Source: Hyperthermus butylicus DSM 5456
GTDB taxonomy: Archaea; Thermoproteota; Thermoprotei_A; Sulfolobales; Pyrodictiaceae
Length of the DNA: 32,000 nt
Direction of reading: 5' to 3'
Assembly (NCBI RefSeq): GCF_000015145.1
Contig: NC_008818.1
Location: forward strand, 1,470,001-1,502,000
Shown here: positions 18,593-27,890 of the stretch, one piece after another
Position numbering within the stretch: position 1 is the stretch's first letter
Layout: the number at the start of each line of letters is the position of its first letter
Notes under the pieces: model-generated
What the model was told of the DNA's origin: nothing
The model's input: the letters and a program-made list of their open reading frames with translations, nothing else
Database searches by the model: none
Made by a program: the position numbers and the translations under genes

Positions 18593-18840
18593 CTAGCCCT
18601 CGCGCTTGCCTAGCGGCTTGGGAGTATATGGTTCTAGGTCGTAGCGTATTATGAAGTCGTCCATGTCGCCTCGCGGCTCCTCCCATACAACCTCAACCCT
18701 GTCAACGCGAGCCAGCGGCGGGCCGTGATGGGCCCACACGATAACCTTTTCTACGGCTTCACGTGGACCCTCGACTACCGCTTCGACACTACCGTCAGGC
18801 ATGTTTCTAACCCACCCCACAACACTGTGCCGCCTAGCTA
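18593..18840 (-). pseudogene. acyP: acylphosphatase, 3' (C-terminal) half
   Basis: Encodes (A)[66 protein letters not shown]..., the GWVRNxxDGSVE and GPPxA acylphosphatase signatures. The N-terminal VxGxVQGVxFR motif is missing. Upstream of 18840 the track ORF (to 19054) translates antisense GT2 sequence. Confidence 0.85.
18832..18840. repeat. left copy of junction direct repeat (GCCTAGCTA)
   Basis: Matches 8 of 9 positions of GCCTTGCTA at 27806-27814. Both copies lie exactly where acylphosphatase homology breaks off. Confidence 0.6.
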
Positions 18841-19569
18841 TTCTGGGCCACCTTTCCGCAGCCTCCCTAGCTAAAAAGTACGCCGACAAGTACGATTTCA
18901 TCGACCTCCTGCAGCTTAAAGCTAACAGGTTATATGATCCATCTCTAGGTGTGGTTAGGACTGTCAGGGCTGGACTCTTATATCTATCTCGGCGCTTAAA
19001 CTTCGAATGGGACGTATTCATCCAAGTTGATGCTGACACAATACTGTTAAACAACTATATCTATATTGTTATTATATATGACTAAGCATGGTAGTGTAGG
19101 TGTAGCCGGCGGTGTAGTCTTGAACGAACCCCAGGCCCGATTCCACGTGCCGAATACTGGTATGGCTGTGAGGAGAGAGGTGTGGAACGACTGCGGAGGC
19201 TACAGGCCTGTGCCAGCTCCTGACACTGCATACAACTCTGCGCTTTGGCGAGAGGGTGGAGATTGGGTATTGCAAAGAATGCGAAGATGATACTGCTGAG
19301 GCCGACACACATCAACCCCTATAAATCGGGGTTTGTTTATGGACGGAGCTACGGGAGGATTACTTCTCTACTCAATACTAAAGAGTGCAAGGAGATCCCT
19401 AACGACTAGGAAACCCGACGTCAAGTGGATAGTTTCATACATGTCGGGCTTCGTTTCTGGGAGACTAAACAGGAAATCATCCCCCTTCCTCGCAGAGCTT
19501 GAAAGGCAGAGAAGGCTCATCGAGAAATATAGATTGAAAGCCCTTCTTAAAGGAAAATACCTCTACTAA
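18841..19569 (+). pseudogene. family 2 glycosyltransferase remnant (N-terminally truncated, several frameshifts)
   Basis: GT2-like pieces lie in at least three frames: ...SLAKKYADKYDFIDLL...NFEWDVFIQVDADTILLNNYI (DxD motif); HGSVGVAGGVVLNEP...NTGMAVRREVWNDCGGY...PDTAYNSALWREGG; GWRLGIAKNAKMILLRPTHINPYKSGFVYGRSYGR; and the tail ORF 19333..19569. Homology starts abruptly at the insertion boundary. Confidence 0.7.
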
Positions 19570-19605
19570 CCGCTACCTGGTAAGATCGAGAAACTGGGAA
19601 TGGAA

Positions 19606-20085
19606 TTAAATAGATAAGCGGGCCGAGCGTGCCGCGCTGGCTAGAGGCCGAATAGTCCTCCAAGACCCTCGCTGAGGTCTACTTCTCTCTTCCTCCTTCT
19701 CCTCTTCTCCTTCTTTTTTCTTTTCCTCCTCCTTGGCTGGCGCTGGCGCGGCTACTGCCTCCAGGCCCAATTCTTTGGCTTTGTCTCCTAGGGCTGCTAT
19801 GACTGCTAGTTCCTCCTGTACTGCCCACGCGATTATGTCCTCCTCTAGGCCTGGGAGTAGGATGCCCGCCTCTCCAGCTACTGCCTTAGCCTCTAGGAAC
19901 GCCTTTGCCAGGGCTGCTTCGACGGCTCCGGGTACTGCAGGGTAGACTATCTCGACCGCTAGGCCTATGGCCTCCTTAGCGGCGTTTATGAAGTCATTCT
20001 TCACCTCCTTCAGGTCGAAGAGTAGCTGGTCCCTCGGGATTATCACTCCATCGTCGTACATTGCGAGTATCTTGAGGCTTATCTC
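19606..20085 (-). pseudogene. ribosomal stalk protein P0 (uL10) C-terminal fragment
   Basis: (A)LEISLKILAMYDDGVIIPRDQLLFDLKEVKNDFINAAKEAIGLAVEIVYP...AAPAPAKEEEKKKEGEEEKEEE matches the C-terminal half of archaeal P0. The universal stalk tail EVDLSEGLGGLFGL* (stop at 19641) is present but one frame off. The N-terminal ~200 aa are absent, with an in-frame TGA just upstream at ~20087. GC-ending codons are unlike the neighbouring AT-rich genes. Confidence 0.75.
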
Positions 20086-20095
20086 TAAAGCTCAT

Positions 20096-20775
20096 TTAGG
20101 CGAATCCTATGGGAAGGATGAATCGTATCCTCCTATAACCCGCCCTGATGTAGGCCTTGGTTACATCAATTGCCTTCTCTACACTACGGTACTGTACTTT
20201 CGCTTTGAATAGCCATGGGACTTGGCAGAACTTGCACCTGGATTTACATCCCCTCATTAGCTCTATTGGTGGGTATAATTTGAACTCCTCAACATATGGA
20301 TCATAGTCGTCGAGATCGATCATCTCGATCCTAGTAACGTTAAATACCCCATTCTCGTCCATGTAGGCTATGTTTGGAACATTGCCTGGATTCTCCCTCC
20401 TCATTATACTCTCAATTAGACCAGTTATTGCGTTCTCCCTGTCTCCAATTACGGCGGCCCACGCGCCATCCCTGAGGAGATGCCAGTACGCTCCCTCCGC
20501 ATGTGGACCGCTAACTATTACGAGATATTTTCTAGCTACCTCTCTAATTTCTGAGCGGAGTTCTAGGTATAGGGGGAAGGATACTCCATAAAGGATGACG
20601 GGCTGGTATCCCTTAGACTTCCATTCATTGGCTTCTTCTAACGGGTTTCTTCTACCATGGTGATTGGTATGTTTTTACCGTACTCCTTGATTAGTGACGC
20701 TATTATTGGACCGAATGCGTTTTTCGCACCGTATGCTATTCTCGCGATTACAGCTATCTTCAACCCTAACACCAT
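20096..20775 (-). pseudogene. radical SAM protein remnant (frameshifted, C-terminally truncated)
   Basis: CxxxCxxC cluster motif IELMRGCKSRCKFCQVPW. The upstream Rossmann/B12-binding-like part (MVLGLKIAVIARIAYG...ITMVEET | LEEANEWKSKGYQPVILYGVSFPLYLELRSEIREVARKYLVIVSGPHAEG) needs a frame change near 20640. The ORF ends ~45 aa after the Cys motif, directly abutting the P0 fragment, so most of the radical-SAM barrel is missing. Confidence 0.7.
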
Positions 20776-26108: not shown

Positions 26109-26974
26109 CTGTACCACCCCGCGAAATACACGACTCCAAACTCTAGTACGAGTAAGCACCCCGTCATCGCCGAGGAACTCTGGTCAAATCCAATTGCTAA
26201 TGCGAGTCCTGCGAGGAATGAGAATAACGCTATTAGAATGCTCAGTGTTAAAGCCCTATAGACACCCTTTGAAGCATAGTGCGCTATGAGGCCTGGTATA
26301 AGTATTAATACGTGCTCTAATATGAAGCCGACTGTATTGATCATGACTATGACTACAATCCCTATGCTAGTATATAATGCGAGATCGTAGAGCCAGACCT
26401 TGAGTCCGGAGAGCCTTGCATCCTCAATGTCGGCTCCTATGTATACTATCTCTCTAGTCGTCGTATACGCGAAGAACATGAAAAGTATAGCGACGATCAT
26501 AGATATTACCGCGTCGCTTCTCGAGGAAAGCAGTGGATCTCCAAAAACAACGGCCCATATCCTTGATGAGTACGGATACCTAGTCAAGACATAATATGAA
26601 GCCAGCACCCCGCCACTTGCAGTGAGACCAACGAATAAGCTGGTCGCCTCATCTGGATCCATGCCCTTATAGGTCAACCATCCGACTAGGTAGACGAGTA
26701 CAAGGCCGATAACTAGCATCCATACTCTCATCGGGAGGCCTATAAAGACTGATAATGGTATTTAGAGGGCGGCGGCCAAGAATGCACTGTGAGGTGAAGC
26801 TGCTGCCATGTACATTAGCCTTCTTGAATAAACCAGCAAACTAAGTGCACCGAATGCTACTCCGCTTGAAGCCATTACAATTACCCACAGTGGATTGTAT
26901 TCTAATGCTAACACAACCGCTAATGATAATGATGACATCAGTATTATTGTGAGAAGCAAAGTGTGGTTCCTCAT
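26105..26974 (-). pseudogene. ABC-3 (ZnuB/MntB-type) metal transporter permease with in-frame TAA
   Basis: ORFs 26762..26974 and 26105..26731 are in the same frame, separated only by TAA at 26762-26764: ...PHSAFLAAAL*IPLSVFIGLPMRVWMLVIGL.... The combined ~289-codon product has the ABC-3 permease pattern (…VVFGDPLLSSRSD…IGADIEDARLSGLKV…LEHVLILIPGLIAHY…). Confidence 0.8.
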
Positions 26975-27747
26975 TTTCTAGCACCTTCATGCTCGTCAAG
27001 AATATGTATATGTTTCTCCACCTCTACTATTGCCTCACCGTATACTTTCGATAGGAACGCTCGCCCTTAACACCTGATCCGGTGATCCCACCGCATATAT
27101 TATTCTTATTAAGTAGTACTACAACATCTGTGTATTTCTCCAGCAACAGGGATCATGGCTTGTTACATTAACCAGTTTCGTCTTTGATATCTCTCCTAGC
27201 AGATATGAGAATTCAATCTTGCCATGGGGATCTATGGGTGCTAAAGGCTCATCTAATAATAGAATTATAGGATCGTAGAGTAGGGTTCTGGCAATGAATA
27301 CTCTCATTAATACTCCACCACTTAGCTCCCAGAGCCTCTTTCCAAGGACGTCTCTCGTTAATCCAGTCCTGCGTAGAACGTCATAGAGTTTTTCCTTGAC
27401 ATCACTTCCCTCACTTAGTCTAGGCCAACGGCGCGTGAATAGGGCTCTAGATGAAAGGAAATCGTACACCGTCATGGGATTGTACCTAGATATTGGAGAC
27501 GTTGTGGCACATAGCCAATACACTCACCCGCAATGCTAGGATCGCCAGTAGCTTCACTTCCACATACTCTGACTATTCCCTTAGTCGGTTTGATGAGTCC
27601 TGCCATAATTCTTAGAAGGGTAGTCTTACCAACACCGTTCGGTCCAATAACCTGAACTAATGCTGGACCTTGTATGTTTATGTTAATGTCTTCTAATATG
27701 GGCTCGCCATCAACCGAGTAGCTTGTGTTAATCAGTTGAATCTGCAT
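26971..27747 (-). pseudogene. ABC-3 metal transporter ATP-binding protein with at least 4 frameshifts
   Basis: The pieces occupy all three reading frames, with a frame change at each junction: MQIQLINTSYSVDGEPIL...GPNGVGKTTLLRIMAG...IGYVPQRLQ | ISRYNPMTVYDFL...LSGGVLMRVFIARTLLYDPIILLLDEPLAPID...VTSHD | LLLEKYTDVVVLLNKNNICGG | SPDQVLRA | AFLSKVYGEAIVEVEKHIHILDEHEGARK*. The last stop overlaps the permease ATG (ATGA at 26971-26974). Confidence 0.85.
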
Positions 27748-27805
27748 TCTCCTCTGACCGTGCACAATATACAATGAAATCAAACTATTTATGCACACAT
27801 CAATA

Positions 27806-27814
27806 GCCTTGCTA
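27806..27814. repeat. right copy of junction direct repeat (GCCTTGCTA)
   Basis: Matches 8 of 9 positions of GCCTAGCTA at 18832-18840. Sits at the point where the acyP 5' half loses homology. Confidence 0.6.
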
Positions 27815-27890
27815 CGTCTCTCATGGTTGCTCTGAAGAATACGCCCCGCACCCTGCCATAGATGCGGAGGTACGCCTTGGGTATCCCTAC
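27806..27890 (-). pseudogene. acyP: acylphosphatase, 5' (N-terminal) fragment
   Basis: Encodes ...[28 protein letters not shown], the N-terminal acylphosphatase signature (VxGxVxGVxFR). It then reads LLMCA* into insertion DNA (stop 27789-27791). This is the only credible part of track ORF 27789..28139. Confidence 0.8.

What the first reader, a model, noticed from the sequence alone, without database searches (positions are those of the whole stretch)
18593..27890. Acylphosphatase gene split by an ~8.97-kb insertion; halves re-join in frame across a 9-bp imperfect direct repeat
On the minus strand, 27890->27806 encodes ...[24 protein letters not shown], the N-terminal acylphosphatase signature. 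It then stops after five unrelated codons (LLMCA*). Further down the same strand, 18840->18593 encodes [54 protein letters not shown]..., the C-terminal signature.

Both break points carry the same 9-mer with one mismatch (plus strand GCCTAGCTA at 18832-18840, GCCTTGCTA at 27806-27814). Deleting 18841-27814 restores one uninterrupted ORF reading ...[24 protein letters not shown].... This looks like a clean insertion into a protein-coding gene, not two paralogous fragments. The short repeat looks like a target duplication or a microhomology scar.
Basis: partly seen in the sequence, partly recalled or inferred. Interest (0 to 1): 0.8.

Follow-up and report, generated by a model that had tools for sequence, protein, structure and literature searches.

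The report
Foreign DNA patchwork splitting acylphosphatase gene
In the heat-loving archaeon Hyperthermus butylicus, a small enzyme gene (acylphosphatase) was cut in two by 9 kb of DNA from other archaea, apparently pasted in during break repair and not by a mobile element, and only the oxygen-reducing enzyme genes it brought are still intact.

Summary
On the minus strand, 27890->27806 and 18840->18593 are the two halves of one acylphosphatase gene. Removing the 8,965-8,974 bp between them gives a 107-aa ORF that matches PF00708 end to end. All eight Pyrodictiaceae relatives examined have the gene uninterrupted.

The window is Hyperthermus butylicus DSM 5456 (Hbut_1480 to Hbut_1490). The insert is not a mobile element. 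Every base is accounted for:
- Segment A (7.7 kb) is colinear with a conserved operon of uncultured Desulfurococcales-labelled MAGs: znuC, znuB, nikR, a membrane protein, cydA, cydA', an MBL gene and a radical SAM gene. It is cut in the znuA/znuC promoter and in mid radical SAM.
- Segment B (1.2 kb) is an unlinked donor piece: the 3' half of ribosomal P0 convergent with a 5'-truncated glycosyltransferase. It is 93% identical in DNA to a metagenome contig.
- One orphan base separates A and B.
- A 27-nt filler of unknown source lies at the left end.

There is no integrase, transposase, terminal inverted repeat or tRNA target. The 9-mer repeat is non-random. However, its left copy is identical to an 8-mer on the far side of the filler that looks like an acyP/donor chimera.

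Best reading: illegitimate end-joining captured foreign DNA at a break. Eleven frameshifts or stops hit the other cargo genes, while cydAA' and nikR are intact, which implies selection.

The parts
27806..27890 (-). acyP N-terminal fragment (about 28 codons), followed by 5 insert-encoded codons and a stop. No start codon is left.
   Evidence: The relatives' ATG codons align with ACG and ATA here.
27806..27814 (.). Right copy of the 9-mer (GCCTTGCTA), which is native acyP sequence. Junction J1 lies at 27806/27805, with at most 1 nt of overlap with donor sequence.
20090..27805 (-). Segment A: 7,716 bp, GC 0.437. It is a foreign chromosomal operon fragment that starts in the donor's znuA/znuC intergenic region and ends at about codon 225 of 450 of a radical SAM gene.
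   Evidence: Colinear with L010/L011 (74% DNA identity over 6.6 kb) and with L012.
26974..27747 (-). znuC-type ABC ATPase pseudogene with 2 frameshifts.
26117..26974 (-). ABC-3 (znuB-type) permease pseudogene with one in-frame stop.
25728..26108 (-). Intact NikR-like ribbon-helix-helix regulator.
24645..25688 (-). Pseudogene (2 frameshifts) of a 355-aa membrane protein that is conserved between nikR and cydA in the donor lineage.
22779..24473 (-). Intact cydA (Hbut_1485, ABM81307). It is 91-93% identical to Desulfurococcales-labelled MAG proteins and 49-51% identical to Pyrodictium CydA.
21566..22777 (-). Intact cydA' (Hbut_1484, ABM81306), the second CydA-like subunit.
20760..21456 (-). Metallo-beta-lactamase-fold pseudogene with at least 2 frameshifts.
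20090..20763 (-). B12-binding/radical SAM (TIGR04013-type) pseudogene. It has 1 frameshift and is truncated at junction J2.
20089..20089 (.). Orphan T between segment A and segment B (junction J2).
18868..20088 (.). Segment B: 1,221 bp, GC 0.50. It is one contiguous foreign piece, made of the 3' half of P0 convergent with a 5'-truncated glycosyltransferase.
   Evidence: 92.8% DNA identity over 804 bp to L176, running from GT2 through the spacer into the P0 3' end. 86% identity to L175 P0.
19641..20088 (-). Ribosomal protein P0 (uL10) C-terminal fragment, from about aa 188 of 340, with 1 frameshift. It is annotated Hbut_1482 'Ribosomal protein 10e'.
18868..19569 (+). Family-2 glycosyltransferase pseudogene starting at codon 56 of 288, with at least 2 frameshifts.
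18841..18867 (.). 27-nt filler (GC 0.67) with no traceable source. It is bracketed by the exact 8-mer CCTAGCTA at 18833-18840 and 18866-18873.
18832..18840 (.). Left copy of the 9-mer (GCCTAGCTA), at junction J4.
18593..18840 (-). acyP C-terminal fragment (82 codons plus stop).

Best explanation
An ancestor of Hyperthermus butylicus DSM 5456 suffered a break in its acylphosphatase gene. The break was sealed by homology-independent (illegitimate, end-joining or microhomology-type) recombination. That repair captured two unlinked pieces of chromosomal DNA from uncultured archaea with about 45-50% GC, plus a 27-nt filler and one orphan base. The donors carry the NCBI label Desulfurococcales.

No target base was lost, and between 2 and 9 bp of target ended up on both sides. 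The insert carries no mobility genes and is not an element. It is a frozen repair and horizontal-transfer scar.

After insertion, acyP died: it has no start codon and a Q->R change in the signature motif. Cargo that could not work has decayed: a metal ABC importer without its binding protein, and several truncated genes. The cydAA' quinol:O2 oxidoreductase pair and the adjacent nikR-like regulator stayed intact, which implies they are kept by selection, most plausibly for O2 scavenging in this strict anaerobe.

Shown here: the split, the foreign origin, the two-segment-plus-filler anatomy, the junction positions, the absence of mobile-element features and the uneven decay. Inferred: the break-repair mechanism, whether there was one event or several, and the function and selection of cydAA'.
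For: Split and rebuild.

Source genome: 100% matches to H. butylicus proteins ABM81302, 81304, 81306, 81307 and 81312 on the 1,667,163-bp chromosome.

Relatives have acyP intact.

Segment A: it has the gene order of L010, L011 and L012, and donor homology starts exactly at the junction, inside the divergent znuA/znuC promoter. Insert CydA is 91-93% identical to those MAG proteins but only 49-51% to Pyrodictium occultum and P. delaneyi CydA. Insert GC is 0.447, L010 is 0.451, and the flanks are 0.575 and 0.627.

Segment B: 92.8% DNA identity to L176 across GT2, the spacer and the P0 3' end. The host's own P0 was not among the hits, so B does not look like a host duplication.

Junctions: the A|B junction is blunt with one orphan T, joining mid radical SAM to mid P0. 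The filler has no source in the window or in any fetched locus.

No mobile-element features:
- No terminal inverted repeats or long direct repeats.
- No integrase or transposase domain in any insert ORF, and no unexplained DNA left to hold one.
- The only tRNA lies 1.2 kb outside the insert.
- No match in plasmid, phage or IMG/VR collections.

Uneven decay: 11 lesions in 5.2 kb of other cargo against 0 in 2.9 kb of cydAA'. A uniform lesion rate gives P of about 0.002. The native flanking genes examined are unbroken long ORFs, including one of 1,486 aa, so the frameshifts are not sequencing noise.

[quoted passage not shown] Microhomology-mediated end joining with terminal transfer and primer extension by the replicative primase has been shown in a hyperthermophilic crenarchaeon (PMC12019639).
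Against: - The true donor is not sampled. Segment A is only 74% identical in DNA to its best relative, so the pre-insertion state of the ends, and whether A and B were already joined in a vector or intermediate host, is unknown.
- The 8-of-9 repeat is also what a 9-bp staggered-cut duplication plus one later substitution would give. With the decay seen in the insert, one substitution in 18 bp is not unlikely.
- The duplicated chimeric 8-mer around the filler is not explained step by step by any simple end-joining scheme.
- No sister strain with an empty site or a filled site was found, so timing and fixation are unknown.
- Selection on cydAA' rests on a Poisson argument that assumes the lesions arose in H. 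butylicus.
- Expression and activity are untested, and the membrane protein conserved next to cydA in donors is broken here.
Confidence: 0.7

Rival explanations
1. Campbell-type integration. Segment A, segment B and the filler first existed as a non-replicating circle (a circularised captured fragment or a defunct plasmid). The circle carried TAGCTAGGC at its closure point. It then integrated by a single crossover with acyP's TAGCAAGGC within the shared AGGC.
For: This reproduces both junction sequences exactly, including which copy carries the T/A difference, without needing a later mutation (sequence). 8-of-9 matches between a 9-kb circle and a 1.67-Mb genome would be abundant, so such sites are easy to find (rate).
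Against: Nothing in the insert can replicate or recombine. No such circle or plasmid is known. The model does not explain the second copy of the 8-mer 33 bp away. A 4-9 bp crossover is itself illegitimate recombination, so this differs from the main explanation only in topology.
Confidence: 0.15
2. Transposition or site-specific integration with a 9-bp target-site duplication (GCCTTGCTA), followed by one T->A substitution. The enzyme was encoded in trans or has since been lost.
For: A 9-bp direct repeat sits exactly at both ends (P = 1.6e-4). The mismatch is at a four-fold degenerate Ala codon position. The insert is old enough to have accumulated 11 disabling lesions.
Against: There are no terminal inverted repeats and no transposase, integrase or Cas1. 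The whole insert is accounted for by truncated donor chromosomal genes plus filler. The ends fall inside a promoter and inside a gene, not at element termini. The left repeat copy equals the chimeric 8-mer beyond the filler.
Confidence: 0.08
3. Assembly or contamination artefact: foreign reads were mis-joined into the H. butylicus chromosome.
For: The composition switches sharply and the nearest relatives of the insert are other organisms. Only an internal 2-kb piece of the insert was seen in an independent read set (L014).
Against: Both halves of one gene flank the insert in the same orientation and frame, with no base lost. A 9-bp imperfect repeat cannot mislead an assembler. The insert itself contains two further illegitimate junctions and heavy pseudogenisation, which contaminant DNA would not show. 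The record is a finished single chromosome.
Confidence: 0.02
4. Two independent acylphosphatase-like fragments, or a naturally split gene, that happen to lie 9 kb apart.
For: None beyond the fact that both fragments lie inside ORFs.
Against: The halves are exactly complementary, with no overlap or gap, and give a full-length family match. The N-fragment has 28 codons and no start. All relatives have one gene.
Confidence: 0.01

Closest known systems
Horizontally acquired genomic islands inserted by illegitimate or end-joining recombination (capture of extraneous DNA with filler at a double-strand break)
   Same: Foreign composition and phylogeny. No mobility genes. Junctions are blunt or have 0-9 bp of similarity. 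There is filler DNA and an orphan base, several unrelated fragments are joined head to tail, and no target sequence is lost.
   Different: Documented here in a hyperthermophilic crenarchaeon. From memory, the genome paper for this organism reported no integrated elements. The two-fragment structure can be traced base by base to donor-lineage contigs. The chimeric 8-mer duplicated around the filler is unusual.
Archaeal integrative elements with tyrosine recombinases (SSV-type, pTN3-type), which usually target tRNA genes
   Same: A block several kb long, of deviating GC, flanked by a short direct repeat.
   Different: No integrase gene or fragment of one. The target is a protein-coding gene, not a tRNA. 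The repeat is only 9 bp and imperfect. The cargo is ordinary chromosomal genes cut at arbitrary points.
IS elements and composite transposons that make 9-bp target duplications (for example the IS4/IS5-type, Tn5 and Tn10; recalled from general knowledge)
   Same: A 9-bp direct repeat at both ends of an insertion that disrupts a gene.
   Different: No transposase, no inverted terminal repeats and no IS copies. The ends are a gene-internal breakpoint and a promoter.
Gene-interrupting excisable elements (sigK skin element, cyanobacterial nifD element; recalled from general knowledge)
   Same: A coding gene is interrupted in frame and could in principle be restored by precise excision across a short repeat.
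   Different: No recombinase is encoded. The host gene shows decay (no start codon, changed signature residue), so it is not being restored.
qOR4a cydAA' oxygen reductases of Thermoproteales and Desulfurococcales (bioRxiv 10.1101/2021.01.16.426971)
   Same: Adjacent cydA and cydA' genes, both matching PF01654, with the same gene neighbourhood as in the donor-lineage MAGs.
   Different: Here the pair is a xenolog sitting in a decayed island of a strict anaerobe. Activity was not tested.

Membership tests
Acylphosphatase (PF00708 / NCBIfam NF011010) | Full-length match of the rebuilt ORF above the curated cut-off | tested here: met
   PF00708 positions 3-85 of 85, 89.4 bits against 22.5. NF011010 117.2 bits against 117.
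Acylphosphatase (PF00708 / NCBIfam NF011010) | Signature motif V-x-G-x-V-Q-G-V-x-F-R and the catalytic Asn (WVRN) intact, with a usable start codon | tested here: not met
   The Arg of FFR and the Asn of VRN are present, but Q->R where all 8 homologues have Q. Two further changes fall at otherwise invariant positions. The relatives' ATG codons are ACG and ATA here. It is a member by descent but a pseudogene.
Integrase-type integrative element | A tyrosine or serine recombinase gene in or next to the insert | tested here: not met
   No such Pfam hit in the main ORFs scanned across 17989-29704. All 8,965 bp are assigned to donor genes or filler.
Integrase-type integrative element | att repeats, usually the 3' part of a tRNA gene | tested here: not met
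   The only tRNA (Lys, 28990-29066) lies 1.2 kb outside. The repeat is 9 bp, matches at 8 of 9 positions, and lies inside acyP.
IS / composite transposon / casposon | Transposase or Cas1 gene and terminal inverted repeats | tested here: not met
   No such domains. No inverted repeats at the ends.
IS / composite transposon / casposon | Target-site duplication of fixed length | tested here: inconclusive
   A 9-bp repeat with one mismatch. The left copy equals a chimeric 8-mer 33 bp away, so it may not be a plain duplication.
Horizontally transferred genomic island | Deviating composition, absence from the same site in relatives, and closest homologues in another lineage with conserved native context there | tested here: met
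   GC 0.447 against 0.575 and 0.627 in the flanks. acyP is uninterrupted in 8 relatives. CydA is 91-93% identical to MAG proteins and 49-51% to Pyrodictium CydA. Synteny with L010-L012 and L176.
End-joining / microhomology-mediated junction | Junctions between unrelated sequences with 0 to a few bp of overlap, and untemplated or untraceable filler | tested here: met
   J1 has at most 1 nt of overlap. J2 is blunt with one orphan T. The 27-nt filler has no source.
End-joining / microhomology-mediated junction | Host enzymes that can carry out such joining | not testable with these tools
   The rest of the genome was not available. Primase-mediated joining is shown for Saccharolobus (PMC12019639).
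cydAA' (qOR4a) oxygen reductase | Adjacent cydA and a CydA-like second subunit, both intact | tested here: met
   PF01654 hits on both. Full-length ORFs, 91-93% identical to MAG homologues, no internal stops.
cydAA' (qOR4a) oxygen reductase | Heme ligands, quinol site, expression and O2 reduction | not tested
   No residue-level or experimental check was made.

The most novel reading that the evidence does not exclude
The imperfect 9-mer is the core site of a recombination system encoded elsewhere in the genome. That system would insert and precisely excise integrase-less cargo blocks, so the island would be a conditionally removable module whose excision restores an acyP reading frame.
Probability: 0.04. 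Interest if true: 0.75.

Novelty: new member of a known kind. Interest (0 to 1): 0.35.

Why it matters
From memory, the H. butylicus genome paper (which I could not retrieve) described the genome as free of integrated or transposable elements and as structurally stable. This locus shows that foreign DNA still entered, apparently by break repair and not through a mobile element.

The scar is unusually legible. There are four junctions, two traceable donor pieces and a filler. That makes it a natural record of homology-independent DNA capture in a hyperthermophilic crenarchaeon, a process studied so far mainly with engineered breaks in Sulfolobales and haloarchaea.

It also suggests that a strict anaerobe kept a transferred cytochrome bd-type oxidase while letting the rest of the cargo rot. 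That is a testable case of selection sorting a random gene delivery. Finally, it corrects the annotation: Hbut_1482 'ribosomal protein 10e' is a foreign gene fragment.

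Tried and rejected
- Exact-product look-ups of window proteins (the 199-aa gene, UbiA, the C-half ORF, the znuC N-part) to find independent contigs spanning the junctions found nothing.
- Scans of genome contigs and metagenome contigs with the rebuilt AcyP found no strain-level relative and not the source genome itself. 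The best hits were 80% and 74% identical. No true empty-site allele was obtained.
- An apparent extension of AcyP similarity upstream of 18840 (tblastn) was rejected. That stretch is antisense to the glycosyltransferase, which is 93% identical to L176.
- I tested whether the P0 fragment is a duplicate of the host's own gene. This was rejected because the host P0 is not among the hits and the closest are metagenomic, at 83% aa and 86% nt.
- I first treated P0 and GT2 as separate captured pieces. This was rejected because L176 shows them adjacent and convergent in a relative.
- The source of the 27-nt filler was sought in the window and in 177 loci by exact, 3-mismatch and local-alignment searches. 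Nothing scored above shuffled controls.
- Plasmid, phage and IMG/VR searches for a vector found nothing.
- Rfam found only the tRNA.
- The H. butylicus genome paper could not be retrieved.
- The taxonomy of the L175 and L176 organisms could not be obtained.

Full report
**1.

On the minus strand the ORF ending at 27789 reads ...[24 protein letters not shown] followed by LLMCA and a stop. The ORF ending at 18593 contains [54 protein letters not shown].... GCCTAGCTA lies at 18832-18840 and GCCTTGCTA at 27806-27814.

Deleting 18841-27814, or equally 18832-27805, gives a continuous 107-codon frame. That frame matches Pfam PF00708 over positions 3-85 of 85 at 89.4 bits against a cut-off of 22.5. 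It also reaches the cut-off of an NCBIfam acylphosphatase equivalog model.

The chance that two random 9-mers of this window agree at 8 or more positions is 1.6e-4. The motif is not over-represented in the window as a whole, so it is the position of the two copies that matters, not their number.

**2. Where the window comes from**

Several window ORFs are identical to annotated proteins of Hyperthermus butylicus DSM 5456 on its 1,667,163-bp chromosome:
- the 199-aa gene is ABM81302;
- the 151-aa ORF at 19606-20061 is ABM81304, annotated 'Ribosomal protein 10e';
- CydA' is ABM81306;
- CydA falls in the cluster of ABM81307;
- the Endo_dU/DUF99 protein is Hbut_1490, ABM81312.

H. butylicus belongs to the Pyrodictiaceae.

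**3. Relatives have one uninterrupted gene**

The rebuilt protein is 88% identical to a metagenomic AcyP (P0001), 78-79% to Pyrodictium occultum and a related contig, and 80% to a P. delaneyi MAG. In all eight Pyrodictiaceae-type loci examined the N-part and C-part hits abut. The upstream neighbour Endo_dU is shared with L009.

Gene order around acyP is otherwise fluid. In P. occultum and L005 acyP is followed in the same direction by the large 1,500-aa protein. Here that protein (13483-17943) is convergent with acyP.

**4. The insert is a patchwork of foreign chromosomal DNA**

GC is 0.447 in the insert, against 0.575 and 0.627 in the flanks.

*Segment A (27805 down to 20090, minus strand).* It carries, in order:
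- a znuC-type ABC ATPase;
- an ABC-3 permease;
- a NikR-like regulator;
- a 355-aa membrane protein;
- cydA and cydA';
- an MBL-fold gene;
- a B12/radical SAM gene.

This is exactly the order on contigs L010 and L011 (a MAG labelled 'Desulfurococcales archaeon', GC 0.45) and on L012. In those contigs the order is preceded by a divergent znuA and followed by intact genes. DNA identity to L010 is 74% over 6.6 kb.

Donor homology begins at the junction itself, inside the znuA/znuC intergenic region and about 55 bp upstream of the znuC start. It ends at 20090, about codon 225 of the 450-codon radical SAM gene.

The insert's CydA is 91-93% identical to proteins of this uncultured clade and 70% to that of Stetteria hydrogenophila. 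It is only 49-51% identical to the CydA of P. occultum and P. delaneyi, no closer than to Thermofilum or Korarchaeum. It is therefore a xenolog and not a Pyrodictiaceae gene.

*Segment B (20088 down to 18868).* It holds the C-terminal half of ribosomal protein P0, convergent with a family-2 glycosyltransferase that lacks its first 55 codons. A Logan contig (L176) is 92.8% identical over 804 bp. The match runs from glycosyltransferase codon 56 through the stop and the spacer into the 3' end of P0, where the contig ends. L175 matches the P0 part at 86%. B is therefore one contiguous donor piece. The host's own P0 does not appear among the homologues of the fragment, so B does not look like a host duplication.

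*Junctions and filler.* Segments A and B meet mid-gene to mid-gene, with a single orphan T at 20089. Between B and acyP lie 27 nt (18841-18867, GC 0.67). These have no counterpart in L176, in the window or in any fetched locus. The sum 7,716 + 1 + 1,221 + 27 equals 8,965 bp, so nothing is left unassigned.

**5. No mobile-element features**

- No insert ORF matches an integrase, transposase or Cas1 domain.
- There are no terminal inverted repeats or longer direct repeats.
- The one tRNA gene lies 1.2 kb outside.
- Nothing similar occurs in the plasmid, phage or IMG/VR collections.
- The ends fall in a promoter and in the interior of genes.

**6. The short repeat**

In minus-strand orientation the relevant sequences are:
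- native acyP: GACG-TAGCAAGGC-GGCAC;
- right junction: GACG-TAGCAAGGC-TATTGATG (donor);
- left junction: (GT2 antisense) CTTTT-TAGCTAGG-GAGGCTGCGGAAAGGTGGCCCAGAA-TAGCTAGGC-GGCAC.

The donor glycosyltransferase natively has TAGCTA(TA) at that point. The 8-mer TAGCTAGG occurs twice, 33 bp apart, and looks like donor TAGCTA fused to acyP GG.

I cannot decide between these. The facts that argue for a repair scar over enzyme-made target duplication are the exact identity of the two chimeric copies, the filler, the orphan base and the arbitrary fragment ends.

Microhomology-mediated joining with terminal transfer and primer extension by the replicative primase has been demonstrated in the hyperthermophilic crenarchaeon Saccharolobus islandicus (PMC12019639). 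A suitable activity is therefore known in the phylum. Whether H. butylicus uses it is inference.

A single crossover between a circular intermediate and acyP within AGGC would also reproduce both junctions without a later mutation. I rank that as the main rival.

**7. What happened afterwards**

Frame analysis against donor proteins shows the following lesions:

| Gene | Lesions |
|---|---|
| znuC | 2 frameshifts |
| znuB | 1 stop |
| 355-aa membrane gene | 2 frameshifts |
| MBL gene | at least 2 frameshifts |
| radical SAM fragment | 1 frameshift |
| P0 fragment | 1 frameshift |
| glycosyltransferase | at least 2 frameshifts |
| cydA, cydA', nikR | none |

That is 11 lesions in 5.2 kb, against none in the 2.9 kb of cydAA'. 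At a uniform rate the chance of this is about 0.002. The native flanking genes examined, including a 1,486-codon ORF and a complete ABC transporter operon, are unbroken long ORFs. The lesions are therefore real decay and not sequencing error.

The importer lost its binding-protein gene at the moment of capture, which explains its decay. H. butylicus has heme biosynthesis (PMC2678158), and cydAA' is the archaeal qOR4a oxidase type. A retained, working O2-reducing quinol oxidase is therefore plausible, though untested.

acyP itself shows drift. The relatives' two ATG codons align with ACG and ATA. Three residues that are invariant in eight homologues are changed, including the Q of the VQGV signature.

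**8. Verdict**

What is there is a composite, integrase-less block of horizontally acquired DNA fixed in a gene. It is best explained by illegitimate end joining at a break, with later selective retention of cydAA'.

This is a new, unusually well-resolved example of a known kind of event, not a new kind of system. It qualifies the published description of this genome as free of integrated elements (recalled from the genome paper, which could not be retrieved).

Noticed in passing
window 19606-20061: The ORF annotated in H. butylicus as 'Ribosomal protein 10e' (ABM81304, Hbut_1482) is a frameshifted C-terminal fragment of a foreign P0 gene, not a host ribosomal protein gene. Its true C-terminus (…VDLSEGLGGLFGL*) lies in another frame.
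   Followed up: yes
window 13483-17943 (+) compared with L001 and L005: A 1,486-aa protein with no Pfam domain is 64% identical to proteins of P. occultum and a related contig. There it follows acyP in the same direction, but here it is convergent with acyP. This implies a local inversion or rearrangement in the Hyperthermus lineage that is independent of the insertion.
   Followed up: partly
window 17989-18588 (-): The 199-aa gene immediately downstream of acyP (Hbut_1480) has no Pfam or NCBIfam match, no homologue in the acyP-bearing relatives screened by tblastn, and lower GC (about 0.53) than its surroundings. It may be an orphan or an earlier acquisition.
   Followed up: partly
window 28013-29066: A UbiA-family prenyltransferase gene (+ strand) and a tRNA-Lys(TTT) lie between Endo_dU (Hbut_1490) and acyP. 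In the closest acyP relative (L009) Endo_dU and acyP are only about 330 bp apart. The long ORF upstream of the acyP N-fragment overlaps UbiA on the opposite strand.
   Followed up: no
window 27755-27805; L010 3555-3610; L012 about 6600-6650: GTGCAT and GTGCAC boxes upstream of znuC are conserved between the insert and all three donor-lineage contigs despite low overall identity. They are probably the operator of a metal-responsive regulator in the divergent znuA/znuC promoter.
   Followed up: no
window 24645-25688; L010 5676-6743; L012 8772-9833: A 353-355-aa membrane protein with no known family is conserved between nikR and cydA in the donor lineage, which suggests a link to the oxidase. Yet it is frameshifted twice in H. 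butylicus while cydAA' is intact.
   Followed up: partly
window 22683-24669 = L014 (Logan ERR2185279): A 1,987-bp contig from an independent public read set is 100% identical to the insert's cydA region. The sample could not be identified, so it may be H. butylicus itself or a very close carrier of the island.
   Followed up: partly
window 12820-13812 (-): A 330-aa ORF antisense to the start of the 1,486-aa gene gives tblastn hits only because it mirrors that gene. It is very likely spurious.
   Followed up: partly
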